Shown here in pieces: positions 1 through 37,108 of a DNA stretch of 38,950 nucleotides; positions within the stretch are counted from its first letter, which is position 1; each line of letters opens with the position of its first letter. Where the stretch lies: positions 1 through 38,950 of the IMG/VR virus record IMGVR_UViG_3300016484_000093; one strand, written 5' to 3'. A program made the position numbers and the translations under genes. The notes under the pieces are model-generated. The model made no database searches, had not been told where the DNA came from, and saw nothing but the letters and a program-made list of their open reading frames with translations. The stretch is from a virus. Its lineage: Duplodnaviria > Caudoviricetes.

Positions 1-374
1 TCATCTGTTTCGCAGTAGTAATCAAAGGCTTTATTGAGTTCCTCATCACTTAACTCTTTTGGTGCAGTGTAGAGTGGAATAAATCCATTTAAACAATAAG
101 TTCTAGCATCAATGACACCATGTAAAACTTGACTAGGATTCATCCATGCAACAGGTTCACCTTGCTTATCCAACTCTTGTTGCCATTTGACAAGCTCGTC
201 CATCGCTCTGTCTTTATCAGCATCAAGAGCTTGTTGTAGTTTTCCTGCATCAAAACCATACTTCCACCCCATTTCAACAAGCAGTAGTTCATCTTCTGTG
301 TAGGCTTCTGTTCTTGGCTCACCGTCTTCCAACCAGTGACCTGCTTTCCACTCTTCAAAAGTTTTATATATCAT
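1..374 (-). CDS. Hypothetical early protein, C-terminus truncated by the window edge (EPVAWM...IPLYTAP...LSDEE module family)
   Basis: Not in the ORF track. Hand translation from ATG at 374 gives MIYKTFEEWKAGHWLEDGEPR...KLQQALDADKDRAMDELVKWQQELDKQGEPVAWM...IPLYTAPKELSDEELNKAFDYYCETD, open to position 1. ATGA overlap with the upstream gene. Confidence 0.85.
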   Translation of the reverse strand, partial: MIYKTFEEWKAGHWLEDGEPRTEAYTEDELLLVEMGWKYGFDAGKLQQALDADKDRAMDELVKWQQELDKQGEPVAWMNPSQVLHGVIDARTYCLNGFIPLYTAPKELSDEELNKAFDYYCETD

Positions 375-493
375 TTTTGTTTCTCCACTTCTTCTACAAG
401 TCTGCGAATCATGGCAATAGATAAATTTAAACTTTTTTGTGAAAAAGCCCCTGTTTCTAATAACTTTGCCAATCTCAATGCTTCTTCTTTCAT
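371..493 (-). CDS. Small hypothetical protein (40 aa)
   Basis: MKEEALRLAKLLETG...RRLVEEVEKQK*; ATGA overlaps at both ends; AAGGAG upstream. Confidence 0.7.
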   Translation of the reverse strand: MKEEALRLAKLLETGAFSQKSLNLSIAMIRRLVEEVEKQK

Positions 494-999
494 TCAAAAT
501 TCTCCTTAAGTTTTGCATAGCTAGTCGGTTTATTTCCGATTAACTGTGCAGAATTCTCAAATTCTTGTTGCCATTTGACTAACTCGTCCATCGCTCTGTC
601 TTTGTCAGCATCAAGAGCTTGTTGTAGCTTTTCCTTGTCAATCCATGACTTGTCGCCATACTCATTAGCAATCCTTTCTAGCGATTCTGTGCTAAAGGTT
701 TCTGTCAAGTAGTATTTCAATGCTTCACGAATCAGGTCGTCATAGGCATCATAATCAGCTTCAATTCGGTCTGTAATACGCTTGACTAACTTGTCGTGAT
801 ATTTAACTTCTTTGATTAATTGTTGCCATTTGTCGTCTTTATTTAAATATTCAGTCCATTTTGTCGCAATTTCTTGACTATTGACGCAATTTCTACCTAA
901 CCAATCAATGTAATCTAATTGCTTCTGTAATCTGTCGTTATCATCGACATGATTCGATAACGTGTCGTTATCTGTGCGTTTTTGCGACATGTCTTTCAT
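490..999 (-). CDS. Hypothetical protein
   Basis: 169-aa ORF coupled by ATGA overlaps; shares a 23-aa block with the 1..374 protein. Confidence 0.75.
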   Translation of the reverse strand: MKDMSQKRTDNDTLSNHVDDNDRLQKQLDYIDWLGRNCVNSQEIATKWTEYLNKDDKWQQLIKEVKYHDKLVKRITDRIEADYDAYDDLIREALKYYLTETFSTESLERIANEYGDKSWIDKEKLQQALDADKDRAMDELVKWQQEFENSAQLIGNKPTSYAKLKENFE

Positions 1000-1223
1000 T
1001 TTACGTTCACTCCTTGCATAACCCGATAAGGGTATCTGTTTTCAAGCCAAAAGCATCTACGCTCATTGTCAGCGCTGATAGCCCAATAGCCTTCCCATAC
1101 TACATTAGACTTCTTAAAAGACCCGCAATCTACTGCTTTGTCTATTTCTGTATGGACACTAGCATAAGCATAGCCACATAGAAAGACAAACACAGAGTAT
1201 AAGACCATGATAAACAAGTTCAT
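996..1223 (-). CDS. Hypothetical protein with N-terminal transmembrane/signal segment
   Basis: Hydrophobic N-terminus MNLFIMVLYSVFVFLCGYAYA; overlapping start/stop codons. Confidence 0.7.
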   Translation of the reverse strand: MNLFIMVLYSVFVFLCGYAYASVHTEIDKAVDCGSFKKSNVVWEGYWAISADNERRCFWLENRYPYRVMQGVNVK

Positions 1224-1402
1224 TGCTTAAATTCCTCAACAACAGGCTCTAATCTATCTACTTTAGAGTTTAAGACTTCAGCAAGTCTATCCAACATAAA
1301 GTCATACCCATAGGTAAGACACAGGTCTGCAAAGTCATGAACGACAAAGTGTTGATAGGCTTCGTAGGCTTCTTTTGGTGTCATATCGTTAAAGTTTAAC
1401 AT
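1220..1402 (-). CDS. Hypothetical protein
   Basis: ORF track 1220..1426; the ATG at 1402 is preferred because AAGGAAAGGAA lies just upstream. Confidence 0.65.
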   Translation of the reverse strand: MLNFNDMTPKEAYEAYQHFVVHDFADLCLTYGYDFMLDRLAEVLNSKVDRLEPVVEEFKQ

Positions 1403-1458
1403 CTTATTCCTTTCCTTGTTTGACATAAATTGTGTAACATACTACACAAAAATAAACA

Positions 1459-1488
1459 TTGACTAATTACATAACTATATGCTATCAT
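1459..1488 (+). promoter_or_regulatory. Putative sigma70-type promoter, antisense to the early genes
   Basis: TTGACT(1459-1464)-N18-TATCAT(1483-1488) with TG one base upstream of the -10; lies in an intergenic gap. Confidence 0.5.
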
Positions 1489-1494
1489 AGTCTA

Positions 1495-1564
1495 TATTGT
1501 TTAACAACATAGACACTGTCGTAAGACATCTTTTCTATGTTATGTATTAAATTATTAAACAATA
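1495..1564 (+). ncRNA. Candidate structured small RNA hairpin
   Basis: Nested stems TATTGTTTAA/TTAAACAATA and AACATAGA/TCTATGTT, with apical TGTC-GTAA-GACA (a GNRA loop on the + strand). Starts where the 1459 promoter would initiate. Confidence 0.4.
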
Positions 1565-1606
1565 CAGTAAACATCATAGCTATATAGGTCTGTATAGACA
1601 TCTGTA

Positions 1607-1861
1607 TTACCTCTCGTCCCATAAGTCTTTGTAATAGTCATCTTCAAAGCCTGAATCATCAATGTAACCTGAATCGTCATCAAGTAAAGTATCTGTTACA
1701 TCGGTGTCAGCTTCACATAAAAGCTCATTATTGCCCTGAACAGGGATATTGCCAATAGCCTTGATACAGTCCATACAAGTATCTAAGAATTGCTTTGTCA
1801 AGCCATGTCTAAGACTACATTCATAGTCTGTCAATGTTGCATTGCACACTACACACTTCAT
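1607..1861 (-). CDS. Putative zinc-finger protein with acidic tail
   Basis: CVVC...CMDC pairs; D-rich C-terminus; AAGGAGG ribosome-binding site. Confidence 0.75.
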   Translation of the reverse strand: MKCVVCNATLTDYECSLRHGLTKQFLDTCMDCIKAIGNIPVQGNNELLCEADTDVTDTLLDDDSGYIDDSGFEDDYYKDLWDER

Positions 1862-1963
1862 AAAACCTCCTTAAATCAATAAAAACACACTAATACATAC
1901 CTACCTATTAACCTATCGCTAAAAACTCAATACAGAGCGTTTTAAAGCGTTTTAGAGCTATTT

Positions 1964-2146
1964 TCATATGTCTGAGTAGCCTACTTTCTTAACTGCATAG
2001 GCATAACCTGACATTTTAGGCATATCGATAGTCTTTTGAACTATAACGTCGCCTACTGTGAGCATCTTTACTGCTTGTTCATGGCTATCAAAGACCCTAA
2101 TCAGGTCGCCTAGTTCATCTCTTAATTCATACTTGATAATTTTCAT
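1964..2146 (-). CDS. Hypothetical protein
   Basis: 60-aa ORF with ATGA overlap. Confidence 0.65.
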   Translation of the reverse strand: MKIIKYELRDELGDLIRVFDSHEQAVKMLTVGDVIVQKTIDMPKMSGYAYAVKKVGYSDI

Positions 2147-2343
2147 AGTTCGTTCTTAGTTCTTATAAGTTCCTCAACTGCTCTGGCAAATTTGACAATT
2201 CCGTTAGCTTCAATATACGGCAACATACTTTCATATAGGCTTACAAGCTCGTCATCTGTTGGCGACTTATACCAATCCTCTATGATTTGGTGTTGCGTGC
2301 AGTATTCCTCATGCATAGACTTAAAAAACTGTTTATCAATCAT
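2143..2343 (-). CDS. Hypothetical protein (TDDEL...FARAVEE module)
   Basis: 66-aa ORF; C-terminal half resembles LSDEEI...YARAIEE of 38695..38925. Confidence 0.7.
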   Translation of the reverse strand: MIDKQFFKSMHEEYCTQHQIIEDWYKSPTDDELVSLYESMLPYIEANGIVKFARAVEELIRTKNEL

Positions 2344-2344
2344 A

Positions 2345-2776
2345 TTAGCTCCCTTGGTTAAATAGGTTGAACAATGGCATTTTCTTTAATAGTAGTGCCT
2401 TACGCTTACTAATGTCAAGATTAGGGTTTTGTAGGTTGTCATCACCATAATGTGCGTTCTCGATACCTTTACAGTCAGTCCACACCTGTATAGCCTTAAA
2501 ACCTAGGTGTATTTGCTTTTTACCCCTACGCTTATACTCTTTGACTGTAAAGCTATCATTCAAGGCATAGATATTAATAAGCCTATAGCCACCCTTAGAA
2601 TTGTATTGCTTTTCTTTAGCGACAATACGCACGATACCAGCTCTGACAAGACTAAATACTAATTGACTAGCATAGTTTTTAGGTAAATCAGGCACTATCT
2701 TGCTTAATTGGTCTATAGTGCTAGGGTTATTCCTAAGTACTTCGATAACCTGTTCTTTTTTGTTTAGTTTTGGCAT
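2345..2776 (-). CDS. Putative winged-helix DNA-binding protein
   Basis: N-terminal pattern VIEVLRNNPSTIDQLSKIV...YASQLVFSLVRAGIV is typical of winged HTH domains; basic composition. Confidence 0.55.
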   Translation of the reverse strand: MPKLNKKEQVIEVLRNNPSTIDQLSKIVPDLPKNYASQLVFSLVRAGIVRIVAKEKQYNSKGGYRLINIYALNDSFTVKEYKRRGKKQIHLGFKAIQVWTDCKGIENAHYGDDNLQNPNLDISKRKALLLKKMPLFNLFNQGS

Positions 2777-2785
2777 AGCATATCC

Positions 2786-3049
2786 TTAGCTTGTTGAGTA
2801 GTCAAATCTTTGGAAAGTTTCCATGTCGGTATAGCCTTTCTCATTAATGCGATAGAGAGTAGCTATGTACTTTTTAGGGTCTGAGTCATCAATCCATATA
2901 TTAATGTCAATAGTGTTATCCCACCCGTACCAGTAGTCTTCAAGCAACGCATCAGGATTTTTATGGGTATCTTTGATACCTGCTATCAATCCTCGAACAA
3001 AAGCCTTAATTTGATTAAGCTCTATATCGTCAATATTTTCAATATTCAT
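2786..3049 (-). CDS. Hypothetical acidic protein
   Basis: 87-aa ORF with a GGTAAAACAAAATG leader. Confidence 0.7.
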   Translation of the reverse strand: MNIENIDDIELNQIKAFVRGLIAGIKDTHKNPDALLEDYWYGWDNTIDINIWIDDSDPKKYIATLYRINEKGYTDMETFQRFDYSTS

Positions 3050-3192
3050 TTTGTTTTACCTTGTCTGTGTTGTTTCTGTGATGGTGGTACATAGCCATAT
3101 TTTGCAAAGGTCTTATTAATATCCGTCTTAGCTGATGGCACATAGCTCAAACGATTGTCTAAGATGTTTGGTGTAATCTGTTTAGATTTCAT
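3046..3192 (-). CDS. Small basic hypothetical protein (48 aa)
   Basis: MKSKQITPNILDNRLSYVPSAKTDINKTFAKYGYVPPSQKQHRQGKTK*; fills the gap exactly, with ATGA overlaps at both ends. Confidence 0.7.
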   Translation of the reverse strand: MKSKQITPNILDNRLSYVPSAKTDINKTFAKYGYVPPSQKQHRQGKTK

Positions 3193-3479
3193 TCTGTATA
3201 CTCCATATAGTCAACTTCATACGCAATATTTTCGTCATAAGGTCTGACAGTTACATAATAACCTAGTCGGTTTACATAGTGAAGACCTTCAATAATACAA
3301 TGCCCGTTATCACATTCAACATAAGTCCATACACGATTTTCTTTAGACCTAGCTACTAAGTCATCCCAATGCTCGTGAGTGTCCCACATATCCTCTCCGT
3401 CAGGATTAGGGACTAAATAAAATTTTTCTACAAACTCATCCCACGTCATCTCTTTAATTGGTAAAAATCCTTTACTCAT
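3189..3479 (-). CDS. Hypothetical acidic phage protein
   Basis: 96-aa ORF with VWT...GLHYVNRLGYYVT motif; AAGGGG leader. Confidence 0.75.
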   Translation of the reverse strand: MSKGFLPIKEMTWDEFVEKFYLVPNPDGEDMWDTHEHWDDLVARSKENRVWTYVECDNGHCIIEGLHYVNRLGYYVTVRPYDENIAYEVDYMEYTE

Positions 3480-3492
3480 AGTAAACCCCTTA

Positions 3493-3573
3493 TTATATAA
3501 TCTGAAAAGCCCATAACATCACAGGCACTACAAAGCATAAGCCAAGGAAAATACCTTTTAATATGTCTAGCAT
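3493..3573 (-). CDS. 26-aa hydrophobic membrane peptide
   Basis: MLDILKGIFLGLCFVVPVMLWAFQII*, preceded by GAGGAG. Confidence 0.6.
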   Translation of the reverse strand: MLDILKGIFLGLCFVVPVMLWAFQII

Positions 3574-3577
3574 TGTT

Positions 3578-3886
3578 TTACTCCTCTACTGTAGCGTTGA
3601 CTAATTCATAAGCAATATATTCTGTGGCGAACCATACGATAGCGTTTCTAAACTGCACTGCATCGTCTAATTGCTCGACAATAGACTCAGGCATCTCGCC
3701 AACATTTGCTCTGTATTCTGCAATGATTTCGTGCATATCATCGCCATATTGAAAATATAAATCTGTGGTTTCTGAGTAGTAAATCATTCCACTAACTCCA
3801 CCATTGCACCCATGCTCTGCAATGTCTTGCAATTCCTCGATTGAGTAGTTAGCTTTGATGTAATCTTTAAATGTAGCGTATTGCAT
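3578..3886 (-). CDS. Highly acidic early protein (candidate anti-restriction/DNA mimic)
   Basis: 102 aa, 20 D/E versus 4 K/R; DIAEHGC-GG-SGMIYYSET motif. The function is an inference. Confidence 0.75.
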   Translation of the reverse strand: MQYATFKDYIKANYSIEELQDIAEHGCNGGVSGMIYYSETTDLYFQYGDDMHEIIAEYRANVGEMPESIVEQLDDAVQFRNAIVWFATEYIAYELVNATVEE

Positions 3887-3889
3887 AGT

Positions 3890-4051
3890 TTAACCCTTTC
3901 TAGCCTTTAAAACTTGTTGAGCATACTGAATAGCCTCTTTGGTAGCTAAAGCACCTTTGCCACCATTTATAGAGATTTTACCTAGTCTAGGATAAGGATA
4001 AGCTAAACCACCACTTGAAAATACTTGTTTTACATCATCTAAAGTTATCAT
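3890..4051 (-). CDS. Small hypothetical protein (53 aa)
   Basis: MITLDDVKQVFSSGGLAYPYPRLGKISINGG...ARKG*; GAAAGGGTAATACAAATG leader. Confidence 0.7.
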   Translation of the reverse strand: MITLDDVKQVFSSGGLAYPYPRLGKISINGGKGALATKEAIQYAQQVLKARKG

Positions 4052-4087
4052 TTGTATTACCCTTTCATTGTCTTAAATTAAGATACT

Positions 4088-4139
4088 GCCTAAGACTGTC
4101 TTGCGACAGTTTCGACCATTTAGGTCTCATCAGTTAGGC
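4088..4139 (-). ncRNA. Type I hammerhead ribozyme
   Basis: The minus strand reads GCCUAA-CUGAUGA-GACC(UAAAU)GGUC-GAAA-CUGUC(GCAA)GACAG-UC/UUAGGC. Full catalytic core, three perfect stems and a GUC cleavage triplet. Confidence 0.93.
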
Positions 4140-4325
4140 TTGAACAATGTTATTGTCTAGTCTATATTTGCATTGTGCTTTGATACGCTTGATTATGGTA
4201 GTCATAGGATAGTCAATATAGTGAATCTTAAAGTAATCATTATTATCATGCAAGGCAGTAGCTAAGACACCTTGAGATGTTTGCGTAAATGTGATTAAGT
4301 AATCTCTGTATGTAATCGTTTTCAT
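4134..4325 (-). CDS. First early gene, hypothetical protein
   Basis: 63-aa ORF after the early promoter; AAAGGGTAAAACAACATG leader; its stop codon lies in hammerhead stem I. Confidence 0.75.
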   Translation of the reverse strand: MKTITYRDYLITFTQTSQGVLATALHDNNDYFKIHYIDYPMTTIIKRIKAQCKYRLDNNIVQA

Positions 4326-4376
4326 GTTGTTTTACCCTTTTCGTTATTGACTAGCGTTATTGCTTGTCATGTGTTC

Positions 4377-4404
4377 ATTATAGGTCTGTTATGTCATTAG
4401 TCAA
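4377..4404 (-). promoter_or_regulatory. Early sigma70-type promoter
   Basis: TTGACT-N16-TATAAT on the minus strand, about 50 nt upstream of the first early gene. Confidence 0.7.
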
Positions 4405-4600
4405 GTCTTTTCTTTATAAAACTTTTCTATCGCTTTTCAGTTCTTTATTACTTTTTTCGATAATGCCTGACTGTGTTGGTCTGTGTTGATAGTTAGTCTT
4501 TAGCTTAACTGTGTAGGTCTGTGGTGTGTCTGTGGTGTGGCTATATAGGTGCAACACTGCCCCATACGCACGACTGCACAGACCAATATAGTGCTATGTC

Positions 4601-4671
4601 GTGTCTGTGTTGTGTCTGTGTTGTGTCTGTGTTGTGTCTGTGTTGTGTCTGTGTTGTGTCTGTGTCGTGTC
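4601..4671. repeat. Tandem repeat (GTGTCTGTGTT) x ~6.5
   Basis: Five perfect 11-bp units, one variant and a partial unit; degenerate copies at 4469-4540. Confidence 0.95.
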
Positions 4672-4771
4672 AACATAGGGGGTGGGGTAGGCTGTGTTGT
4701 TGTAATGTTGCGGGATGCTACATCGTACACAAAAAAGAGTAATTAAGACACTATATAAACATTGTAATTGA

Positions 4772-4853
4772 TTAAAAAATAGGCAATATAGACTATGTTG
4801 TATGTCATTGATTTGTAAGGAAGTAATCTATGTTGCTTAAAAAATAGGCAATA
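4772..4853. repeat. 17-bp direct repeat TTAAAAAATAGGCAATA (4772-4788, 4837-4853)
   Basis: Two identical copies 65 bp apart in the non-coding region. Confidence 0.85.
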
Positions 4854-5021
4854 ATGGATAAAGACAAGCGAATCTGCTCACTCCGAAGGAGGTCTGCAGA
4901 GGTCAATATCGACTATGTAGCCCTGCTAATCTGCTCAGACGTAGTCGCTGTTATAAGACAAAAGTGATAGTTGTCTAGTAACAGAATTGTTGACTATGTT
5001 GTATGGTTAATAAAATATTTC

Positions 5022-5050
5022 TTGACAAAATCGTAAAAGTATGCTAAAAT
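5022..5050 (+). promoter_or_regulatory. Sigma70-type promoter of the packaging operon
   Basis: TTGACA-N17-TAAAAT with extended -10 TG. Confidence 0.85.
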
Positions 5051-5079
5051 CGCTTTCATAGTACAAACAATACAGAATT

Positions 5080-5251
5080 GATAGAGTCCTGCTCACGCAG
5101 AGCGCTGTATAGCGGTGCAATAGAACCAACGACCGCTAGGTTAGAGAAGAATGATAAATAAAAAAATTCTTCTCTCTACAGTAGCGCAAACGTTAGCGAT
5201 ATAGAACAGATGTCTAACGACAGCGTCTATATAGATAAGTAGGACTTAATC
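5080..5251 (+). ncRNA. Candidate multi-stem structured RNA / leader upstream of the small terminase
   Basis: Closing stem 5085-5093/5238-5246 enclosing stems 5102-5106/5183-5187, 5110-5116/5132-5138, 5143-5152/5166-5175, 5191-5196/5214-5219 and a palindrome at 5226-5235. Confidence 0.5.
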
Positions 5252-5280
5252 TTTTTGTCTCCTTAATAAAGGGTAAAGAC

Positions 5281-5682
5281 GTGGCTGAAGAAGTTAAAGT
5301 AAAACCTAGACGTGGTCGTCCGCCGAAGGCGTTGATAGCGGAAAAGAAAAAACCAGGTAAAGTTGGTAGACCTGTCGGTGAAACAGGACGTATCCAAGAA
5401 TTAAAGGCTAGGTTGTTGTCTACGACTGGTGACAGGGTCATCAACAAAATCGTAGAGATTGCTATGACTGATGGACATCCAGTTCAGGGTGCTGCGTTGA
5501 AGATGTGTATTGACAGAGTATTACCTTTGTCTTATTTTGAGAAAGACAAGACTGGTGGTTCAACACCGCAGATTAGTATCAACATCACAGGCATTAACAG
5601 CCCTACGGTGTCTGCAGAAGAAACAGTGATTGAAACTGGCATCACTGACGTAAATTACAGGGAAGACGATGACACAGCTTAA
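5281..5682 (+). CDS. terS: Probable terminase small subunit
   Basis: Directly upstream of and overlapping TerL; basic RGRP/VGRP N-terminus; helical core; C-terminal ISINITG beta strand. Confidence 0.75.
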   Translation: MAEEVKVKPRRGRPPKALIAEKKKPGKVGRPVGETGRIQELKARLLSTTGDRVINKIVEIAMTDGHPVQGAALKMCIDRVLPLSYFEKDKTGGSTPQISINITGINSPTVSAEETVIETGITDVNYREDDDTA

Positions 5683-6931
5683 CTTCAGTCTTCTAAAGTG
5701 GCAACAAGATGTATTTAAAGACCCTACACGCTTTAAGGTTATTGCTGCAGGTCGTCGATGTGGTAAGTCAAGATTATCTGCTGTAACGCTGTTAATTGAA
5801 GGTATTAACTGTCCTGAAGGTTCTAGCGTGATGTATGTAGCTCCGACGTTAGGACAAGCGAGAACGATTATTTGGGACTTGTTGATGGACTTAGGTAGAC
5901 CAATTATCAAATCTGCTCACGTCAACAACTTAGAGATTACTTTAGTTAATAATAGAAAAATTCTAGTACGTGGTGCTGATAATCCAGACAGTCTTCGTGG
6001 CGTGAGCTTAACTTATCTTGTAATGGACGAATGTGCGTTTATCAAAAGCGAGATTTGGGAGAAAGTACTTCGTGCTGCTTTGTCGGATAAGAAGGGTAGA
6101 GCAATGTTTATCTCTACACCATCAGGACGTAACCACTTCTATGACTGGTATCAGTTAGGTCAAAGTGGTAACGATGAAGAATGGAAATCTTGGCACTTTA
6201 CGACTGCAGACAATGAGACGATTGACCCTAAAGAAATCGAAGCTGCAAAACGAACACTCAGTTCATTTGCGTTCAAACAAGAGTACTTGTCTTCTTTCGA
6301 TAACGCTGGTGCGGGATTGTTCAAAGAAGAATGGATTAAGTTCGGTGAAGAACCGACGCATGGTTCGTGGTATATCGCAGTAGACTTAGCTGGCTTTGAA
6401 GACGTAGCGAAGAACGCTAACGCTTCTAAGAAGAGACTTGACCAATCAGCCATTGCTGTTGTAAAGGTAACTGAAGATGGTAAATGGTATGTGGAAAAGA
6501 TTGAAGCAGGTCGTTGGGACATCCAGACTACTGCTGTCAACATTCTTAAGAACATTCGTGAATATGAGCCTTTAGCGGTTGGTATTGAACGAGGTGCGCT
6601 TAAGAATGCTGTATTGCCGTATCTCAGTGATTTAATGCGTAAGAACAACTGTTACGCTCATATCGCTGATTTGACGCACGGTAACAAGAAGAAAGTAGAT
6701 AGGGTTGTCTGGGCGCTACAGGGACGCTTTGAACACGGTAGAATAATCCTCAACGCTGAGGAAGACTTTGACGAGTTCGTAGACCAACTGTTGATGTTCC
6801 CTACACCGAATGTACACGATGACTTACCAGACGCATTGTCGTACATAGACCAACTAGCCGTTACAAGCTACTTTGACGGTGAAGATGACCAAGACGACTG
6901 GGAAGCATTAGACGTAGTTTCAGGATACTAA
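5669..6931 (+). CDS. terL: Terminase large subunit
   Basis: Walker A AGRRCGKS, Walker B LVMDE, ISTP coupling motif, and nuclease motifs IAVDLA and HDDLPDA. Confidence 0.97.
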   Translation: MTQLNFSLLKWQQDVFKDPTRFKVIAAGRRCGKSRLSAVTLLIEGINCPEGSSVMYVAPTLGQARTIIWDLLMDLGRPIIKSAHVNNLEITLVNNRKILVRGADNPDSLRGVSLTYLVMDECAFIKSEIWEKVLRAALSDKKGRAMFISTPSGRNHFYDWYQLGQSGNDEEWKSWHFTTADNETIDPKEIEAAKRTLSSFAFKQEYLSSFDNAGAGLFKEEWIKFGEEPTHGSWYIAVDLAGFEDVAKNANASKKRLDQSAIAVVKVTEDGKWYVEKIEAGRWDIQTTAVNILKNIREYEPLAVGIERGALKNAVLPYLSDLMRKNNCYAHIADLTHGNKKKVDRVVWALQGRFEHGRIILNAEEDFDEFVDQLLMFPTPNVHDDLPDALSYIDQLAVTSYFDGEDDQDDWEALDVVSGY

Positions 6932-10043: not shown

Positions 10044-10877
10044 ATGGCAGCAAACTTTATTGAACAGGAAGAACTGTTTCAAAGCAATGAGCAAGAAGTA
10101 GTACAAGATATTACAACACCTGAAACTGACACAACAGCGTCAGATAACTCAGTAGAAACAGTATCAAAACAAGAACCAGTAGATGAGTTACCTGAGAAGT
10201 ATAAAGGTAAAACAGCTGCAGAGATTGCTAAGATGCACATGGAAGCTGAAAAGCTCATCGGCAGACAAGCAAACGAGGTTCACGAAGTACGAAGTCTTGC
10301 AGACCAGCTTTTAAAACAGCAACTCGAAGCCAGTCAAAAGGTAGCTAAACAGCCTATTGAAGAATCGCAGGACGAAGATTTCTTCGCAGACCCTGAAAAA
10401 GCTGTATTGAAAACTGTAGAGAAGCATCCTGCAGTTCAAGAAGCAAAAGCAGCTGCGCTAGAACTGAAGAAGATGAAAACAGCCCAACAACTGGCTGCTA
10501 AACATCCCGACTTTGTAAGTATTGCACAAGATGCAGGTTTCCAAGAGTGGGTCAAATCTTCAGCGATTAGATTGCAGTTGTTTGCTAAAGCTGATGCGGA
10601 ATATGACTTTGACTCTGCTGATGAATTGCTCAGTACCTATAAGGAATTGAAGTCAATCAAAGCAAGTCAACAAGTACAGAAGACGCAAGAAGTTGAAGCT
10701 AAGGCTCAAGAACAAGCAATGAAAGCTGCAACAGTTGATGTCGGTGGAACAGGCGAAGCTAGTCGTAAGATTTATCGTCGTGCTGACCTTATTAAATTGA
10801 GAATGACCGACCCTGAGCGCTATATGCAAATGTCTGATGAGATTATGCAAGCATATCAGGAAGGGAGAGTGAAATAA
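10044..10877 (+). CDS. Capsid scaffolding protein
   Basis: Acidic, coiled-coil, LPEKYKGK motif, upstream of the major capsid gene. Confidence 0.85.
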   Translation: MAANFIEQEELFQSNEQEVVQDITTPETDTTASDNSVETVSKQEPVDELPEKYKGKTAAEIAKMHMEAEKLIGRQANEVHEVRSLADQLLKQQLEASQKVAKQPIEESQDEDFFADPEKAVLKTVEKHPAVQEAKAAALELKKMKTAQQLAAKHPDFVSIAQDAGFQEWVKSSAIRLQLFAKADAEYDFDSADELLSTYKELKSIKASQQVQKTQEVEAKAQEQAMKAATVDVGGTGEASRKIYRRADLIKLRMTDPERYMQMSDEIMQAYQEGRVK

Positions 10878-11287
10878 TGTTGGAGACAGACAAGGCATGG
10901 TTTGCTGGAATTATTGATGGTGAAGGTTGTATTTCGCTTGTTAAAAGAGGAAAGCATTTTGTTCCTTCTGTTAAAGTAGCAAATACAAATGAAACATTAA
11001 TAAATAGATGTAAACAACTGTTGTCTGAAGCTGGTATAGAATATTATGTTCGGTATTCTGATAGAACTGAACGTAAGAACGCAAAACCAGCGTGGGAAAT
11101 AGTGATGGAATCACGACCTAGAGTTATTTCTTTTCTTACACTAATTTATCCATATTTGGTTGCAAAACAAACGCAAGCAGATTTAGTTTTAGATTGGTGT
11201 AGTAAAGGAAAACGAAAGAAAGAAGATACCGAAGTAAATTATATCCCTAACATTAGAAAACTTAATCTTCGTGGTCGAGTCAATTAA
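10877..11287 (+). mobile_element. Freestanding single-motif LAGLIDADG homing endonuclease
   Basis: WFAGIIDGEGCI motif and IYPYLVAKQTQA C-terminal signature; A/T-richer than its neighbours. Confidence 0.9.
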
Positions 11288-13454: not shown

Positions 13455-13781
13455 ATGCCAAATACATTTAAGAATTTTCACTCTAAGAACGTAGGCACAA
13501 GTCCTGCTACAACTTATACTTGTCCTTCTGCAACACAGACTACTGCTATTGGCATGACTGTTGCTAACGTAAGTTCTAGTAACATTACTGTTGATGTTTA
13601 CATCACTGCAGGTGGTACTGATTATTACTTGGTTAAAGGTGCTACAGTTCCTGTCGGAGGTGCATTAGTACCTATCGGTGGAGACCAGAAAGTAGTATTA
13701 GAAGCTACTGATGCGATTAAAGTTCAATCTAGTGCAGCAACAAGTGCTGACGTTAATTTAAGTGTACTAGAAATATCATGA
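13455..13781 (+). CDS. Small beta-rich virion structural protein
   Basis: 108 aa; YTCPS...KVVLE...SVLEI pattern; resembles 18807..19151. Confidence 0.75.
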   Translation: MPNTFKNFHSKNVGTSPATTYTCPSATQTTAIGMTVANVSSSNITVDVYITAGGTDYYLVKGATVPVGGALVPIGGDQKVVLEATDAIKVQSSAATSADVNLSVLEIS

Positions 13782-14320
13782 TGAACTCTGGTATCTACAG
13801 AATAACACATATAGATACGGGTAAAATCTATATTGGTCAGTCTTGTAATTTAAAAGCTCGAGAACGTAGTCATAAAAATATTAAAAAGAATCATAATAAC
13901 TATTTGTCAAACGCAATACACAAACATGGTTGGGATTCTTTTAAGTTTGAAGTATTAGTATATGCTGAAGGAGTGGAGTACTTAAATCTTTTAGAAGAAG
14001 CAGCAATAAAAGCATTTGATTGTCTTTCTCCTAATGGATTTAATATACGAGCTGGCGGTAATAACTCACCAATGAGTGAGGAATCTAAAGCAAAAATGTC
14101 AGTACGAAAGAAACAAGACATTGCTACTGGAAAATGCCCAAGACCTATGAATATGACTGGCTTTAGACATTCGCCTGAAACTATTGAACACCTTAAACAA
14201 GTACATAAAGGTAGACAGTTTTCTGAGGCTACTAAAGAAAAACTTAGAGAAGCTGCTAAACTTAAATGGCAGAATCCTGAGTATCGTGAAAAAGTATTAA
14301 AAGCGAAAGGGATTAGCTAA
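13778..14320 (+). mobile_element. Freestanding GIY-YIG homing endonuclease (NUMOD3-like repeats)
   Basis: GIYRI...IYIGQS, conserved R, E and GFN residues; SEESKAKMS / HSPET / SEATKEKL repeats. Confidence 0.92.
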
Positions 14321-16345: not shown

Positions 16346-16581
16346 TTGTTATCAACATCGATAAAGCTAAAGAGATTAAGAAAGACCAACTTCGTGCAGA
16401 GCGTAAACCTTTACTAGAATCTCTTGATGTAGAGTTTGTAAAGGCATTAGAGACTGGTGCAGATACTACACCGATTGTTGCTGAGAAACAAAGATTAAGA
16501 GACATTACTAAGCTGTGTGATACTGCACAGACTATTGAAGAATTAAAGGCTATAGAGGTTAATAATGCCAACAATAGCTGA
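16342..16581 (+). CDS. Probable tail fibre assembly chaperone
   Basis: ATG at 16342 overlaps the previous stop; LRAERKPLL..LD...KQRLRDIT motif. Confidence 0.7.
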   Translation: MIVINIDKAKEIKKDQLRAERKPLLESLDVEFVKALETGADTTPIVAEKQRLRDITKLCDTAQTIEELKAIEVNNANNS

Positions 16582-17053
16582 ACGCTTTAATGAAGCCTTT
16601 GAGTACAGAGACGGTAAGTTGTTTTGGAAAATCAATACTAACAAGTCTAAGAAGTTAATAGGTAAAGAAGCTGGCTGTAAGTCATCAGGTGCTTACGGTG
16701 TTGTTAATTTAGATGGTAACGCTTACAGTGTTCATAAAGTTATATTTACAATGCACCATGGGTATATGCCTGTAGTTGTAGACCATATTAACTTGGATAA
16801 GACCGATAACAGTATTGAGAATTTAAGAGCTGCTGACCATCATACTAACAACTATAACAAGAGTGTTCAAAAGAATAACAAGTTAGGTATGAAGAATATC
16901 TGCTGGCACTCACAGAATCAAAAGTGGTTGGTGCAACTAACTCAAAAAGGTAAGAAGATTGTTTCGTTTATGACGGATGATTTAGAGTTAGCTCAGTTAG
17001 TAGCTCATGAAGCTAGAGATAAATATCATGGTGAATTTGCTAGACATAAATAA
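16565..17053 (+). mobile_element. Freestanding HNH homing endonuclease with AP2-like C-terminal domain
   Basis: VHKVIF...VDHINLDKTDNSIENLR...NN motif; EARDKYHGEFA tail. Confidence 0.9.
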
Positions 17054-18046: not shown

Positions 18047-18262
18047 ATGAACGAGCAAGGCGGAGTAGACCTCTACAAGTACGGTAAGTTAGTAGCTCAA
18101 GTAGAAGCTATGGAGAAGAAGATTGACAAGCTAGAATCAGGTATGGAAGAGTTACTTGAACTAGCTAACCGTAGCCGTGGCGGATTGTGGGCGGGCATGA
18201 TGATTGCCTCGTCTATCAGTGCGGTAGTTGGTTTTATAACATCACACTGGATAAATAGATGA
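18047..18262 (+). CDS. Coiled-coil protein with C-terminal transmembrane helix (XhlA/holin-like)
   Basis: ATG at 18047 preferred over the track start at 17912; hydrophobic GLWAGMMIASSISAVVGFI segment. Confidence 0.7.
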   Translation: MNEQGGVDLYKYGKLVAQVEAMEKKIDKLESGMEELLELANRSRGGLWAGMMIASSISAVVGFITSHWINR

Positions 18263-18810
18263 CAGTAGGCATTTACAGTATCATTCATGTGCCTACAAAT
18301 AGAGCGTATGTAGGACAATCTTCTGATATTGAAAAAAGATGGAAAAGACATCTTAAACTTGCAGAGATTGGGGATAAACGACATTTATATTGTGCATTGC
18401 GTAAATATGATATTACAGAGTTTAGATTTGATATATTAGAGGAATGCACGACTGAAGAACTAAATGAAAAAGAAATATACTGGATTAAAGAATTAAACTC
18501 TTATGAGTCTGGCTTTAATTTAACTTTAGGTGGTGATGGTATTCGTGGTCATAAATTTACGGAAGAAGCTAAACAAAGAATAAGTAAAGCAGTTTCAGCA
18601 TTGATGACACCTGAGTATAGAAAGATACTAAGCGATAAGAACAAAGGTACTAAACTATCACAAGAAACAAAAGATAAAATGAGTGCTGCTAGAAAAGGAA
18701 AGAAACTTTCTCCTGAGTGGATTGAGAACATCCGTAAAGCACGGCTCGGTAAACCTCTATCAGAAGCACATAAAGCAGCTCTAAGACAACCAAGAAAGAA
18801 GAACAGATGA
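18259..18810 (+). mobile_element. Freestanding GIY-YIG homing endonuclease (NUMOD3-like repeats)
   Basis: GIYSI...YVGQS..IEKRW...E.YWI...GFNLTLGG; SQETKDKMS repeats. Confidence 0.92.
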
Positions 18811-30151: not shown

Positions 30152-30491
30152 TCTTCTCTTCCTTTTCAATCAAATATGATAAGTAATGTTGTGCCTTTTT
30201 CAAATCCTCCAATCCGTTTTTGTATCTCCATCGAAGTAAATATTTTAACACATTTCCTTCATAGTAGTTTAGTTCCCAAGTGTCGATAATATCCCAAGGC
30301 TGGTAAGGTTTTCCTTTGTAATGATTTCCGCCAACTTGTTGATTTTTAACGGAAAAAGTATCACCAGGGTCTTCACAGCCTAAGTTTGGCATCACAATTG
30401 GACCGCTAGTGTAGCACATATTTCGTTCTTTGTCAACTCGCTGTTGATATTCTCTGTAAGCGTCTTGTAAGGTCTTGAATTCATTACTCAT
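30126..30491 (-). CDS. DUF3310 (T7 gp1.7-like putative nucleotide kinase)
   Basis: QVGGNHY...GNVLKYL.R...KNGLEDLKKA.HYL. Confidence 0.85.
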   Translation of the reverse strand: MSNEFKTLQDAYREYQQRVDKERNMCYTSGPIVMPNLGCEDPGDTFSVKNQQVGGNHYKGKPYQPWDIIDTWELNYYEGNVLKYLLRWRYKNGLEDLKKAQHYLSYLIEKEEKNATSVARD

Positions 30492-31228
30492 TATGCTGCC
30501 CTCTTAATCTCCGTTGTCTTGCTAAGTGCTTTCGTAGATTGCGACCACGTCCCGCAGGCTCTGCACTGGTATCGCTGATACACGCCTGATGCGCTAATAG
30601 CAGTTCCACGCTTCTGTATCTTCGGCGAAGCACACGTTGGACATACGTGTTCGTCACTAAACACATTCTGATTAGGATGCGATTGAATCCAAGGCAGAAG
30701 TTTATGATAAAGTTTTTCCAGTAATACGACATCTTGGACATTGTATTTCTCCATTGTTTGCCATGCTTCAGCGTCTTTGTTCATACACTTAAGCCATAGT
30801 TCAAAGCCTTCATGCGATTCTTTCTTACCTAAACCAAGCTGTTGTGAGACATGGTCTAGTTTATTAGAAGCAAAGCGAAAGTTGCGCCTAACAGTACGGA
30901 GTAAGTCAATACTCTTATAAGGTGATGGTGGAGTAAGACCACATAAGAGGAATTCCTTGTTAAGTACAGGAAGGTCGAACTTATTGCCATTATAAGTAAT
31001 AACAGCGTCTGCCATGTTGAGAAGTGCATGAATGCCTTTCAGCATAGATTTATGCTTACTGTTGTAGATTGAGTCGAAGAAGATTTCGTCATCGTCAGTC
31101 CACTTAGCTGTGTAGCACAGAACCTTTGATGTGTCAATCATCTGATTTAGACCGATGTTCTGGTCGTATAAGCCCCAGACATACGCTGACATAGGGCTTG
31201 TTTCGATGTCCAAAAGAAGTATCTTCAT
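30491..31228 (-). CDS. DnaQ/RNase H-like 3'-5' exonuclease with C-terminal zinc ribbon
   Basis: LDIET, YNGNKFD and YNVQDV motifs; CPTC...CRAC. Confidence 0.88.
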   Translation of the reverse strand: MKILLLDIETSPMSAYVWGLYDQNIGLNQMIDTSKVLCYTAKWTDDDEIFFDSIYNSKHKSMLKGIHALLNMADAVITYNGNKFDLPVLNKEFLLCGLTPPSPYKSIDLLRTVRRNFRFASNKLDHVSQQLGLGKKESHEGFELWLKCMNKDAEAWQTMEKYNVQDVVLLEKLYHKLLPWIQSHPNQNVFSDEHVCPTCASPKIQKRGTAISASGVYQRYQCRACGTWSQSTKALSKTTEIKRAA

Positions 31229-33409: not shown

Positions 33410-33613
33410 TTAATGCAGGTGTCCAGATTCAAAGTCATCAATTCCTTCTAAGTCTCCGTCTTCAAGGTCTTGCAAAGCAGTCTGAATTAACTCATGTGTT
33501 TCTGCCATGTCCATTGACGTTCTAATGACGTAAGTACCATCATTATAAGCGTGAATAGCTACTAAACCGTATAGGTTCTCCATTGTCTTTTCGTCATCTA
33601 AATCGTCAAACAT
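33410..33613 (-). CDS. Small acidic hypothetical protein
   Basis: 67 aa; TAATG-coupled to the polymerase. Confidence 0.7.
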   Translation of the reverse strand: MFDDLDDEKTMENLYGLVAIHAYNDGTYVIRTSMDMAETHELIQTALQDLEDGDLEGIDDFESGHLH

Positions 33614-35301
33614 TAGTGTGTTTCCTTCCAGTTGTTACCGATTTTAAATTCACCTGTCAAAGGACAGCGCATCCCAACAGTATCTATTAATTTACCATTC
33701 TTTGTAGTTTGGTATTTCATTGTCGAGCCTGCAAGTTCAATCGCTTTGACTCCTGTTTTTCCGACTACTTCTGCAAATGCTTCAGGTGTTTCTACCTGCC
33801 ACTCATCGTGAACATTAGCTACAAACTTATGCGGAATCTTACTTTTACGAAGTTGTTCTTTAAATATAACAAGAGCCTGTTTCATTACTATCGCACCTGC
33901 GCCTTGTAGTAACGTGTTGAGCGCCGAATGCTCCGAACGAACGAGTAGCTTGCGTCCGTCAAGACCTCGTAACCAGCCTTTTTCATTGTACGCAGTAGCA
34001 ACAGTCTTGCGAAGTTGAGCGAGTTTGGGTGTGTTTTGTAGAAAATTATCAATGAGTTTCTGTCCTTCTTTCGCAGAACCTCCAACAATCGACCCGATTT
34101 TGGCACTTCCCGCACCATAGAGAAATGCATAGATAAACGTCTTAGCTTGATTCCTCGTTTGCAACCCAGCAGCGGTTTGGTTCGCTGTGTGTATATCGCC
34201 TTCAGTAACTTCATGTGTATAAGCATTGTCATTCATGTAGTGAGCCAACATACGCAATTCTAAGCCGCTTGCGTCAATGCCAACTAACTTCATACCTTTC
34301 TCAACAGTCCATAACGCACGACATTCAGGTCCATACACAGCACCGCTGTTAGGTACTTGTGCCATGTTAGGGCTGTGATGAGTCATGCGTCCTGTCACAG
34401 CACCACAGGTAATTACTTTACCGTGTACACGTCCGTCAGACTCAACTGCATCAATCCATGATTCAATCTGAGCGATACGCTTTTGTAGCATTAGATACTC
34501 TGCTATTTTTTTCGCTTCGGGGATGTCGACACCTTCGAGCGTGGTTTCGTCAACGATGATGCTACCTTTTTCCGTGGTTTTCGTTGGCTTCCAACCTTTT
34601 TCGATGAGTCGCTCTGCGATTTGCTTACGGCTTCCTGGGTTGAAGACGATGACTTCGTCTTTGAGCCTTTTTCCAGTTTTTTCTGAATATCGTTCAACTG
34701 TTTTCGTTGGGAATACACTCTGTAATTCATTTTCAATATCAGATAACTTACCTTTAAGTTCTGTAAGAAGTCCGATAGCTTGTCTTTCATCCAATTTGAA
34801 ACCGTTGCGTTCTTGTTCTGCAACGATGATTGCGACTTCGTGTTCGAGGTCGATGCTCTGCTGCGAGTAGTCATTTTTCATTTCCCTTTCTAAGAAAAGA
34901 TATAACTGCTTTGTTACTAACGTATCTTGCTCACAATACTGAATCATCTCAGGTGTTAAACCACCATCGAAGTCTGTGAAGTCACCTTTAGGAAAACCTA
35001 ATCGTTGACCCCATGATGCAAGACTATGTCCGCCTTCTAACTGTGGGTTATAAAGACGGGACAATACCAATGTGTCAACGACTTGTTTCTTTTTCATCGT
35101 GACACCCCATAACTTCTTAAGCACAGGACCATCAAAGCCAATACCGTTGTGCATAATCACTTTCTCTGCACGATTGATAAGGTCTTGTAGTGCGTCCTTG
35201 CCTGTGAAACGAACAACTTTATCGTTGTCAATGTCACGAGCAACTGCTAACCAAATATGACTAGCTGTGCTGTTTGTTTCTATGTCAAGAACTATACGCA
35301 T
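33613..35301 (-). CDS. polA: Family A DNA polymerase (T7 gp5-like)
   Basis: Exonuclease motifs DIET, HNGIGFD and YCEQD; motif A DASGLELR, motif B RNQAKTFIYAFLYG, motif C VHDE. Confidence 0.97.
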   Translation of the reverse strand: MRIVLDIETNSTASHIWLAVARDIDNDKVVRFTGKDALQDLINRAEKVIMHNGIGFDGPVLKKLWGVTMKKKQVVDTLVLSRLYNPQLEGGHSLASWGQRLGFPKGDFTDFDGGLTPEMIQYCEQDTLVTKQLYLFLEREMKNDYSQQSIDLEHEVAIIVAEQERNGFKLDERQAIGLLTELKGKLSDIENELQSVFPTKTVERYSEKTGKRLKDEVIVFNPGSRKQIAERLIEKGWKPTKTTEKGSIIVDETTLEGVDIPEAKKIAEYLMLQKRIAQIESWIDAVESDGRVHGKVITCGAVTGRMTHHSPNMAQVPNSGAVYGPECRALWTVEKGMKLVGIDASGLELRMLAHYMNDNAYTHEVTEGDIHTANQTAAGLQTRNQAKTFIYAFLYGAGSAKIGSIVGGSAKEGQKLIDNFLQNTPKLAQLRKTVATAYNEKGWLRGLDGRKLLVRSEHSALNTLLQGAGAIVMKQALVIFKEQLRKSKIPHKFVANVHDEWQVETPEAFAEVVGKTGVKAIELAGSTMKYQTTKNGKLIDTVGMRCPLTGEFKIGNNWKETH

Positions 35302-36177: not shown

Positions 36178-36515
36178 TTGCTATCCTTTCGGTATTTGTC
36201 AATTTCTTCATCAAGCTGAATTCCTGTAATCCATGTCCAACGATGCCCTCGACCGTCGCACATCAACACAGTAGGGGCTACGACATCTTCGGGAATATCC
36301 CATGACGAAGACTTCAGCCACAAATATCGTTCTGAGTTTTCCCATGTTTCAACATCGTCAACAATCTGAGACAAGACATTGCGATTCAAGTCTCTAAGAC
36401 GTTCAACTTCATCACAGAGAGCATTGATGTAATTCCTAGTAACGGAATATTCGTCATGCTTAGCATACTTTCTTGCCTGTTCAACTAGGTCTGTTTTCTT
36501 GTCTTTATAGCTCAT
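36174..36515 (-). CDS. Hypothetical protein
   Basis: Start MSYKD at 36515 after GAGG; ERYLWL...LDEEID motif. Confidence 0.7.
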   Translation of the reverse strand: MSYKDKKTDLVEQARKYAKHDEYSVTRNYINALCDEVERLRDLNRNVLSQIVDDVETWENSERYLWLKSSSWDIPEDVVAPTVLMCDGRGHRWTWITGIQLDEEIDKYRKDSK

Positions 36516-37044
36516 TTTTTTCCTCAAGTTTTACAACCATTGCTTTTAGAATGGGAAGTATATCATATTCGCCATACTCACCTAAAGTGCTATTAACTGC
36601 TGCTAGGACTATCCTTGTATTTTCTGGAGAATAGTTTTTATTACTAGCGTCAATTCGGTCTAAAGACGGAGCGTACGGGTTAAGTCTTGTTTTTTGAGAG
36701 GGTAATAAATCAAAAGGAAGACCTGTTAATTCGCAACATCCTTTGACTATTTTTTCTTCAATCCATTCCTGTGTTATTGTGACTTTGAATCCTTTTTTAT
36801 GAGAGCGGTTTCTTGCAGAATTAAGCAACATAAAAGAACGACCACGAGGTGTTTCTCGTCTATCTGCCTGTCGTTTTAAACCTCGTTTATTTATTTTAGC
36901 AAAGGATGCTGGAGATAGCCACTGTTCCTTAAAAAATCCATCTTTCTTAACTTTTTTCGTCATGTATTTAACAAAACGATATCCGTCCTTTCTAGTGTCT
37001 CCGTATTTAAAAGGTTGGTTAGTATCTGTGTTGTTTCTTTTCAT
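36505..37044 (-). mobile_element. Putative freestanding HNH-like (His-Me finger) endonuclease
   Basis: CELTGLPF...PSLDRID...Y...N...N motif; ATG at 37044 after GAGGA; has its own promoter. Confidence 0.7.
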
Positions 37045-37072
37045 GGTTTCCTCATTAATATTATGTATCAGT

Positions 37073-37101
37073 AGTTTACCACAACTTCGGCTACTTGTCA
37101 A
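37073..37101 (-). promoter_or_regulatory. Sigma70-type promoter upstream of the endonuclease gene
   Basis: TTGACA-N17-TAAACT with extended -10 TG. Confidence 0.75.
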
Positions 37102-37108
37102 TGAGTTT

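What the first reader, a model, noticed from the sequence alone, without database searches (positions are those of the whole stretch)
4066..4149. Self-cleaving hammerhead ribozyme in the early mRNA, overlapping the first gene's stop codon
All hammerhead core nucleotides are present on the coding strand (CUGAUGA, GAAA, GUC), with stems I (6 bp), II (4 bp) and III (5 bp, GCAA loop). Predicted cleavage is between 4094 and 4093. Stem I uses the last codons of gene 4134..4325 (GCC UAA). It can extend through CAUUGUU/GACAAUG (4149-4143/4072-4066) right up to the next gene's RBS, with an internal UCUUA/UAAGA hairpin. A terminating ribosome would disrupt stem I, so cleavage may be coupled to translation. 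The ribozyme could process the early polycistron as RNase III sites do in T7, leaving a 5'-OH downstream mRNA. Hammerheads are known near phage genes, but their role there is largely unresolved.
Basis: partly seen in the sequence, partly recalled or inferred. Interest (0 to 1): 0.88.

Follow-up and report, generated by a model that had tools for sequence, protein, structure and literature searches.

The report
Hammerhead ribozyme between phage early genes
A textbook hammerhead RNA motif, predicted to cut itself, sits between the first two early genes of a freshwater phage and likely trims one long message so that the next gene gets a short standard leader; such phage hammerheads have been known since 2011, and the overlap with the stop codon is common to the class and likely reflects tight gene packing.

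Summary
The ribozyme motif is real: type I hammerhead at 4139-4088 (minus strand), complete core, Rfam RF00163 33.5 bits (cut-off 34; E 9.5e-5), predicted cut 4094/4093, stem I built from GCC UAA of gene 4134-4325. Thirteen distinct copies in this phage group keep the fold by compensatory changes. Loop II instead covaries with the bases flanking stem I, a likely tertiary contact. Stop-codon overlap or abutment is class-wide (13 of 13 in relatives; 54 of 71 in unrelated phages, 6 expected), but the register wanders from -10 to +15 and is not significantly tighter than ordinary gene packing (p 0.11), so translational gating is unproven. The element is patchy (13 of 50 relatives) and sits between unrelated genes. 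Most likely it constitutively cuts the early polycistron, giving the downstream message a fixed 5'-OH leader. This kind was described in 2011, and this scan has reported it in at least 130 other genomes. No RNA data were available; cleavage is untested.

The parts
4377..4404 (-). sigma-70-like early promoter (TTGACT, 16 nt, TATAAT); start of transcription expected near 4370
   Evidence: 11 of 12 consensus match, joint best of 26 promoter-like sites in 1-5700, where shuffles give 20.5; function inferred
4134..4325 (-). first early ORF, 63 aa, unknown function; its last codon and stop form the 5' strand of stem I
   Evidence: no PHROG hit; 81% identical relative L001 ends differently and has no ribozyme
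4088..4139 (-). type I hammerhead ribozyme motif, 52 nt (stem I 4139-4134/4093-4088; core 4133-4127; stem II 4126-4114; GAAA 4113-4110; stem III 4109-4096; U16 4095, C17 4094)
   Evidence: covariation in 13 family members, 98.2% of cells paired, 9 pairs changed on both sides
4093..4094 (-). predicted cleavage site (3' of C17): 2',3'-cyclic phosphate on 4094, 5'-OH on 4093
   Evidence: position from the hammerhead consensus; chemistry from established knowledge (PMC6765202, passage); not measured
4140..4140 (-). A just 5' of stem I; likely tertiary partner of the first U of loop II (4122)
   Evidence: A in 100 of 101 class members whose loop II begins with U; invariant in 13 of 13
4087..4087 (-). 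A at position 1.7; likely tertiary partner of the last U of loop II (4118)
   Evidence: last loop base U goes with A1.7 in 81 of 81, last base A with U1.7 in 20 of 21
4078..4089 (-). leader motif GCAGUAUCYUAA type, also found before early genes without a ribozyme in relatives
   Evidence: single exact copy in the window; role unknown
4052..4093 (-). 42-nt leader of the predicted 3' cleavage product, with Shine-Dalgarno-like AAGGG at 4064-4060
   Evidence: sequence; cut-to-AUG 27-43 nt in 12 of 13 copies
3890..4051 (-). second early ORF, 53 aa, unknown function; optional in the population
   Evidence: a contig in run X6 joins 4054 to 3887 and skips it
3578..3886 (-). third early ORF, 102 aa, PHROG families of unknown function; follows the ribozyme leader directly in some strains

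Best explanation
The element is a compact type I hammerhead motif lying between the stop codon of the first early gene and the ribosome binding site of the second, and it likely cuts the early polycistronic mRNA constitutively after 4094, which would give the downstream message a fixed 42-nt leader with a 5'-hydroxyl end. Steps: (1) host sigma-70 polymerase transcribes the minus strand from about 4370 (inferred from the promoter match and gene orientation); (2) the three stems fold around the intact core (sequence and covariation shown) and loop II docks on the two unpaired A's beside stem I (inferred from covariation); (3) it self-cleaves (predicted, untested), 40 nt downstream of the stop so that no non-stop message is made (geometry shown); (4) the ~280-nt first cistron ends in the stem III hairpin and a cyclic phosphate, and the rest starts with 5'-OH, a poor substrate for 5'-end-dependent RNase E decay (inferred from known enzymology), so the two parts would decay separately and the downstream gene would be insulated from whichever gene lies upstream, as the engineered RiboJ insulator does; (5) ribozyme plus leader behaves as an optional junction module that is gained and lost as early genes are shuffled (patchy distribution shown; route inferred to be recombination).
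For: Complete core and fold; compensatory changes in stems I-III across 13 copies and further stem II and III variants in population contigs. Always sense to the early genes, 1.1-2.0 kb from the small terminase gene. Upstream and downstream genes are unrelated from copy to copy, yet the cut-to-AUG distance stays 27-43 nt in 12 of 13 and has median 25 nt in 64 of 71 unrelated phage copies. Upstream ORFs of 60 aa or more run past the cut in 0 of 71 and 0 of 13 (2 of 71 at 40 aa). The leader motif after the cut is the same motif that precedes early genes without a ribozyme. Precedent: tandem prophage hammerheads cut 2-kb native transcripts in vitro, one set in E. coli, and a halovirus early transcript has its mapped 5' end within 3 nt of a hammerhead cut (PMC3088659, sections 6 and 11). 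RiboJ raised mRNA about twofold and protein 2-10-fold (PMC6206723, passages).
Against: No cleavage, 5' end or expression was measured here. 37 of 50 relatives with at least 2.5 kb of early-side DNA lack it, and an 81% identical homolog of the first gene has no ribozyme after it, so it is dispensable. RNase E can cut 5'-OH RNA quickly by direct entry (PMC2948425, passages), and in hosts with RNase J cleavage can destabilise the product, as for glmS (PMC6765202, passage); the host is unknown. The 3' product has no strong 5' hairpin (-1.8 kcal/mol for 4093-4040), unlike RiboJ. In an unconstrained 496-nt fold stem I has probability only 0.39 (0.98 with a 120-nt span limit).
Confidence: 0.6

Rival explanations
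1. Translation-gated cleavage: ribosomes terminating on the first gene unwind stem I, so cleavage happens mainly when that gene is poorly translated (or, conversely, translation clears competing pairings and promotes folding), linking processing to translation state.
For: Stop lies within -6..+14 of the core in 13 of 13 copies in this group and -10..+15 in 54 of 71 others (shuffles 0.7 and 6.0), so a terminating ribosome would cover stem I; blocking 4150-4125 abolishes stem I in the model; few stops lie 19-56 nt away (0 of 68); in a global fold, sequence inside the first gene (4253-4256) competes for the 3' strand of stem I.
Against: Register is not conserved; every frame meets a stop in the ribozyme's 5' half; the 5' spacing is not significantly tighter than at plain junctions of the same loci (54 of 68 vs 26 of 45 within 3 nt; p 0.11); 9 of 68 lie over 50 nt from a stop; the extension is not conserved; predicted RBS accessibility is unchanged by cleavage or by the blocked stretch.
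Confidence: 0.15
2. Nearly neutral or selfish junction element: the ribozyme rides on a repeated leader sequence that serves as a recombination point for shuffling early genes; cleavage is tolerated because it falls between genes, but is not selected for regulation.
For: At least 8 gains or losses on the terminase tree, with near-identical phages differing; ribozyme bins are several times deeper than either flanking gene in three runs, and contigs join it to other genes or skip it; hammerheads are common in selfish elements (PMC3088659, section 11).
Against: Core and tertiary-contact bases are kept with compensatory stem changes across very different phages; a relaxed search of the 80 relatives' loci (up to two core changes, then any core) found no decayed copy, only three loci with one extra core U; no transposase or reverse transcriptase among the 60 proteins scanned.
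Confidence: 0.15
3. Cleavage lowers expression: the cut destabilises one or both products and so limits or times toxic host-takeover proteins.
For: glmS cleavage leads to decay of the downstream mRNA (PMC6765202, passage); the 3' product starts largely unstructured, which RNase E direct entry could use (PMC2948425, passages).
Against: A fixed leader with an intact RBS is left on the 3' product in nearly all copies, and hammerhead insulators raise expression in E. coli (PMC6206723, passages).
Confidence: 0.1

Closest known systems
Phage and prophage hammerhead ribozymes flanking single genes or gene blocks (Perreault et al. 2011, PMC3088659; sections 6 and 11 and passages read)
   Same: Phage DNA, sense strand, between small variable genes; processing of long transcripts into gene-sized mRNAs proposed there; HHphage of haloviruses HF1/HF2 lies in the early region just upstream of a start codon.
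   Different: One copy here, not a cluster (two in four relatives' loci); that paper stresses type II and pseudoknot contacts and its main text has no occurrence of 'stop codon'; its supplementary alignments were not opened.
Type I hammerhead, Rfam RF00163 (clan CL00010), Schistosoma Sm-alpha type
   Same: Topology, core, 4-bp stem II, cut after GUC.
   Different: 33.5 bits, 0.5 below the gathering score; stem I stops at 6 bp with no conserved internal loop and distal helix; the loop II / 1.7 contact is U-with-A, the reverse of the A-with-U1.7 Hoogsteen pair reported for the schistosome and sTRSV ribozymes (as described in PMC11875169, passages).
RiboJ insulator (sTRSV-derived ribozyme plus 23-nt hairpin before the RBS; PMC6206723, passages)
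   Same: Self-cleavage just upstream of an RBS would give a fixed 5' leader whatever lies upstream.
   Different: Engineered; placed after a promoter; carries a stable hairpin, which is weak or absent here.
RNase III sites of the T7 early mRNA (recalled, no call)
   Same: Cuts between early genes of one long transcript.
   Different: Needs a host protein and a long double-stranded stem and leaves 5'-phosphate ends; none of that applies here.
Theta (HDV-like) ribozymes of gut phages (PMC10879173, search listing only)
   Same: Self-cleaving RNA used for processing in DNA phages.
   Different: Other fold; tied to tRNAs, and this window has none.

Membership tests
Hammerhead ribozyme class, type I | Core C3 U4 G5 A6 N7 G8 A9, G12 A13 A14, A15 U16 H17 without change | tested here: met
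   consensus as given in PMC3088659 methods passage
Hammerhead ribozyme class, type I | Three stems paired next to the core; stems II and III closed by loops, stem I open | tested here: met
   (98.2% paired; slid controls 28-43%)
Hammerhead ribozyme class, type I | Tertiary contact between loop II and the stem I region | tested here: met
   by covariation only: 81 of 81 and 20 of 21 for last loop base vs 1.7; 100 of 101 for first loop U vs the 5' A; relatedness of sequences not corrected
Hammerhead ribozyme class, type I | Self-cleavage after H17 giving 2',3'-cyclic phosphate and 5'-OH | not testable with these tools
   no bench assay; no RNA holder listed
Rfam family RF00163 in the strict sense | Score at or above the gathering threshold of 34 bits | tested here: not met
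   33.5 bits, E 9.5e-5; filed under the class, not the curated family
Phage intergenic hammerheads (Perreault 2011) | In a phage genome, on the coding strand, between small non-conserved ORFs | tested here: met
Clustered phage hammerheads (Perreault 2011, Fig. 3) | Two or more copies flanking a gene or block | tested here: not met
   one copy in the window; two copies in L041, L044, L069, L070
Phage intergenic hammerheads (Perreault 2011) | Processing of the native polycistronic transcript | not testable with these tools
   shown for other elements in that paper, not for this one
Translation-coupled RNA switch (attenuator-like) | Ribosome footprint overlaps the structure | tested here: met
   stop within stem I here; -6..+14 in 13 of 13
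Translation-coupled RNA switch (attenuator-like) | Conserved register and conserved alternative structure that changes RBS access | tested here: not met
RiboJ-like insulator (works-like only) | Stable hairpin left at the new 5' end | tested here: inconclusive
   5-bp A/U-rich hairpin, whole leader -1.8 kcal/mol
RNase III processing site (works-like only) | Long double-stranded stem around the cut | tested here: not met
   longest helix 6 bp; extension unsupported; feature recalled

The most novel reading that the evidence does not exclude
A very common compact phage hammerhead (about 1700 stored IMG/VR stretches match the search pattern; 104 of 125 sampled loci held a valid type I fold) is a mobile natural insulator welded to stop codons: the stop or last codons supply stem I, the core UGA or the A needed for the loop II contact, and terminating ribosomes gate the cut, so that phages split early operons into separately stabilised messages according to how actively each gene is translated.
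Probability: 0.15. Interest if true: 0.7.

Novelty: new member of a known kind. Interest (0 to 1): 0.33.

Why it matters
The role of self-cleaving ribozymes in DNA phages is still open (PMC6765202, passage: 'largely elusive'). This locus does not answer it, but the phage group offers natural controls: close relatives with and without the ribozyme, the same ribozyme between different genes, and a 52-nt design with a covariation-predicted two-point contact that can be tested by double mutants. If cleavage stabilises and insulates downstream genes, phages evolved the RiboJ principle on their own; if termination gates it, that would be a new kind of control. The host is uncultured, so tests would start in a surrogate host.

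Tried and rejected
RNA evidence: no RNA holder listed among 22 runs; the four runs laid were DNA contigs, which cannot show ends or expression. Protein search with the 102-aa gene found no relative in viral contigs; the 63-aa gene found one. No close cultured phage: terminase matches all under 60% identity and the 25 listed were 24-29%; best DNA polymerase match 49% to Pelagibacter phages, too distant to name a host or family. Replacement by another ribozyme class: 26 relatives' loci without a descriptor match gave 0 Rfam matches at gathering score; this test is weak, since the window's own ribozyme is below that score and two of the 26 (L052, L061) later proved to hold a variant hammerhead. 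Stem I extension to the RBS: rejected. My check of the UCUUA/UAAGA hairpin used wrong coordinates and is void; searches show it as a weak 4-5-bp hairpin. RBS unmasking by cleavage: not seen in the model. Loop II pseudoknot with downstream bases: mutual information beyond position 1.7 was weak (z at most 3.4). A loose core pattern without pairing rules is not above chance in the window (15 matches, 17 of 100 shuffles as many), so only the paired motif counts. Five of nine loci from the first exact pattern (L002, L004-L006, L009) lack the type I stem III and read by eye as type III; they did not enter the type I counts. The careful tree did not finish; the quick tree was used. No look-alike of this stretch and no note on this genome in earlier scan findings.

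Full report
Setting. The window is a 39-kb podovirus-like phage genome: terminase, portal, capsid, tail and endolysin genes on the plus strand, and a primase-helicase, DNA polymerase, Gp2.5-like protein, exonuclease, RusA-like resolvase and ribonucleotide reductase on the minus strand, with no RNA polymerase among the 60 proteins scanned. The best DNA holder is a freshwater metagenome that may be its source. An array of small unknown ORFs runs leftwards from 4325 on the minus strand, behind an 11/12 sigma-70-like site at 4404-4377. No close cultured relative was found; the host is unknown.

The motif. Rfam finds a full-length type I hammerhead at 4139-4088, 33.5 bits against a gathering score of 34, E 9.5e-5. 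The 52-nt fold is the hammerhead three-way junction, -18.2 kcal/mol, z -4.38, 0 of 200 shuffles as stable. All core bases fit the consensus, the cut falls between 4094 and 4093, and stem I's 5' strand is the last codon and stop of the 63-aa first gene. The cut lies 40 nt after the stop and 42 nt before the next AUG. These parts of the observation are right.

Relatives. The small terminase found 297 relatives in viral contigs, of which 80 were kept. A structure-aware descriptor found hammerheads in 13 of the 80 loci (17 copies, 12 distinct), all type I, all on the early strand 1.1-2.0 kb from the terminase gene; three more loci carry a variant with one extra U before stem II. Among the 50 relatives with at least 2.5 kb of early-side DNA, 13 carry one. 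An alignment of the 13 distinct strict copies (window included) has 98.2% of cells paired, 9 pairs changed on both sides, against 28-43% paired for slid controls (one search was a first run with one pair misplaced). On a quick terminase tree of 54 rows the label needs 9 changes, at least 8 forced by well-supported branches (shuffles 12.7; the three variant loci were labelled absent), and near-identical phages differ. The flanking genes are unrelated from copy to copy. L001 has an 81% identical first gene that ends differently and is followed directly by a homolog of the third gene, with no ribozyme. DNA contigs of three other runs show the same modularity: the ribozyme bin is several times deeper than either flanking gene, one contig joins the leader to the third gene (joint 3887-4054), another skips the first gene and ribozyme (4061-4369), and loose ends show changed but still paired stems II and III and another gene end in front of the ribozyme (loose ends read by eye).

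The class. A core-only pattern gave 125 loci from 5 of 64 parts of IMG/VR, about 1700 stretches by the tool's estimate; 104 of the 125 hold a valid type I fold, 116 distinct. Of 71 with at least 400 nt upstream, 60 have a 6-bp stem I, 54 have an ORF of 40 aa or more ending within -10..+17 nt of the core (shuffled upstream: 6.0 +/- 2.1, maximum 12), and 64 have a downstream ORF with median cut-to-AUG distance 25 nt. In this phage group the figure is 13 of 13 (0.7 expected). The stop falls at -10 to +15; the commonest place is the core's own UGA (17 of 54), and in 14 of 54 the stop supplies the conserved A just 5' of stem I. So stop-codon overlap is a property of the class, not a peculiarity of this locus.

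Does overlap mean coupling? Three controls say it need not. All three frames meet a stop inside the ribozyme's 5' half (0, +4, +14). Plain early-gene junctions in the relatives have a median stop-to-start gap of 2 nt (n 424, crude gene calls). In the unrelated loci the spare sequence 5' of the ribozyme is within 3 nt in 54 of 68, against 26 of 45 at plain junctions (Fisher on near versus intermediate, p 0.11), and 9 of 68 lie over 50 nt from a stop. In favour of some coupling: the trend is in that direction, no stop lies 19-56 nt away, and a ribosome at the stop must open stem I. One firm constraint is that long ORFs end before the cut (0 of 71 of 60 aa or more pass it), which avoids non-stop messages.

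The extension and the tertiary contact. The proposed helix to the RBS has probability 0.96 in a 96-nt fold but 0.24, 0.04 and 0.00 in longer ones; it is not stronger than shuffles (p 0.13) and only 1 of 13 copies reaches p 0.05. It overlaps the proposed hairpin by two bases. What is conserved instead is a pair of correlations in 120 copies with stem I of at least 6 bp and stem II of at least 4 bp (of 134 distinct): last loop II base U with A at 1.7 (81 of 81) or A with U (20 of 21; also 8 of 9 within five-base loops), and first loop base U with A 5' of stem I (100 of 101) (not corrected for relatedness). The A-with-U1.7 form is the Hoogsteen contact reported to make minimal hammerheads fast (O'Rourke et al., as described in PMC11875169, passages); the window has the reversed form (U4118 with A4087, U4122 with A4140). 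Whether the reversed form is in print I cannot say: Perreault's Fig. S5 and Dataset S1 were not opened. Modelled RBS accessibility is the same before and after cleavage.

Mechanism. Most likely (0.6) the ribozyme cuts constitutively, releasing a ~280-nt first cistron capped by the stem III hairpin and a cyclic phosphate, and a downstream message with a fixed 42-nt 5'-OH leader. That would uncouple decay of the two parts and insulate the downstream gene from whichever gene is shuffled in front, much as RiboJ does (PMC6206723, passages). Preference of RNase E, J and Y for 5'-monophosphate ends is stated in the abstract of PMC10939160 (listing), but RNase E can bypass it (PMC2948425, passages). 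Rivals are translation gating (0.15), a nearly neutral mobile junction (0.15) and destabilisation (0.10). Folding, covariation, geometry and patchiness are shown; transcription, cleavage and any effect on expression are inferred.

What is known. Perreault et al. 2011 (PMC3088659; sections 6 and 11 in full, other passages) described hammerheads flanking variable genes in prophages, proposed processing into gene-sized mRNAs, showed cleavage of 2-kb native transcripts, and noted a halovirus early transcript starting at a hammerhead cut. Reviews repeat the link to small non-conserved ORFs and phages and call the role open (PMC6155905, section 8 and passages; PMC6765202, passages). Six searches listed no paper on stop-codon overlap or translational gating of phage hammerheads, but the library lacks most subscription papers, and supplements were not read. 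The scan itself has 136 notes with these words in at least 130 genomes; the eight shown give nearly the same reading. I reached my reading before opening them and do not count them as support.

Verdict. A genuine new member of a known kind; interest 0.33. The useful additions are the class-wide counts with controls, the rejection of the extension, the covariation-predicted contact and the natural with-and-without pairs. The boldest reading not excluded, a termination-gated mobile insulator, has probability about 0.15.

Noticed in passing
window 4078-4089 (-); many of L029-L084: A leader motif of the form GCA-G/U/A-UAUC-Y-UAA precedes the Shine-Dalgarno of early genes in many relatives, after a ribozyme, after a plain stop, or just after the apparent early promoter. 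A second repeated leader (CAGUAGAUAAG type) does the same in L041, L043, L069. Could be a protein-binding site, translation enhancer or recombination point.
   Followed up: partly
L052 ~4887, L061 ~5380, L079 ~4928 (-): Hammerhead variant with one extra U between A9 and stem II, otherwise intact, stops at -8 and -5.
   Followed up: partly
L002, L004, L005, L006, L009 around 1501: Same stem II sequence used in what reads by eye as a type III hammerhead, about 120 nt after a 450-aa gene and about 60 nt before the next start.
   Followed up: no
window 4583-4681: Tandem 11-nt repeat (about seven copies) in the non-coding gap between the early promoter and the terminase genes, next to a G-rich run; possible origin or genome-end signal.
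   Followed up: no
window 166-243 and 554-631: 78-nt direct repeat, 91% identical, inside two neighbouring ~170-aa minus-strand ORFs (3-518 and 490-999), suggesting a tandem duplication.
   Followed up: no
window 10877-11287, 13778-14320, 16565-17053, 18259-18810, 36505-37128: Five free-standing endonuclease genes (HNH, homing/GIY-YIG-like, endonuclease VII-like) in a 39-kb genome, four among the structural genes.
   Followed up: no
window 30491-31228 (-): Separate 245-aa DNA polymerase exonuclease-subunit-like gene in addition to the family A polymerase at 33613-35301.
   Followed up: no
window 1448-1488 (+) and 4388-4415: 28-nt inverted repeat, 79% complementary, that includes the early promoter's -35 region and a plus-strand promoter-like site at 1459-1488 facing the early array; possible antisense promoter.
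   Followed up: no
L110, L121, L143, L152 and others among L091-L215: Up to three type I hammerheads within about 1 kb; several loci have A/U-rich leaders without a Shine-Dalgarno, so the class spans hosts with different initiation signals.
   Followed up: no
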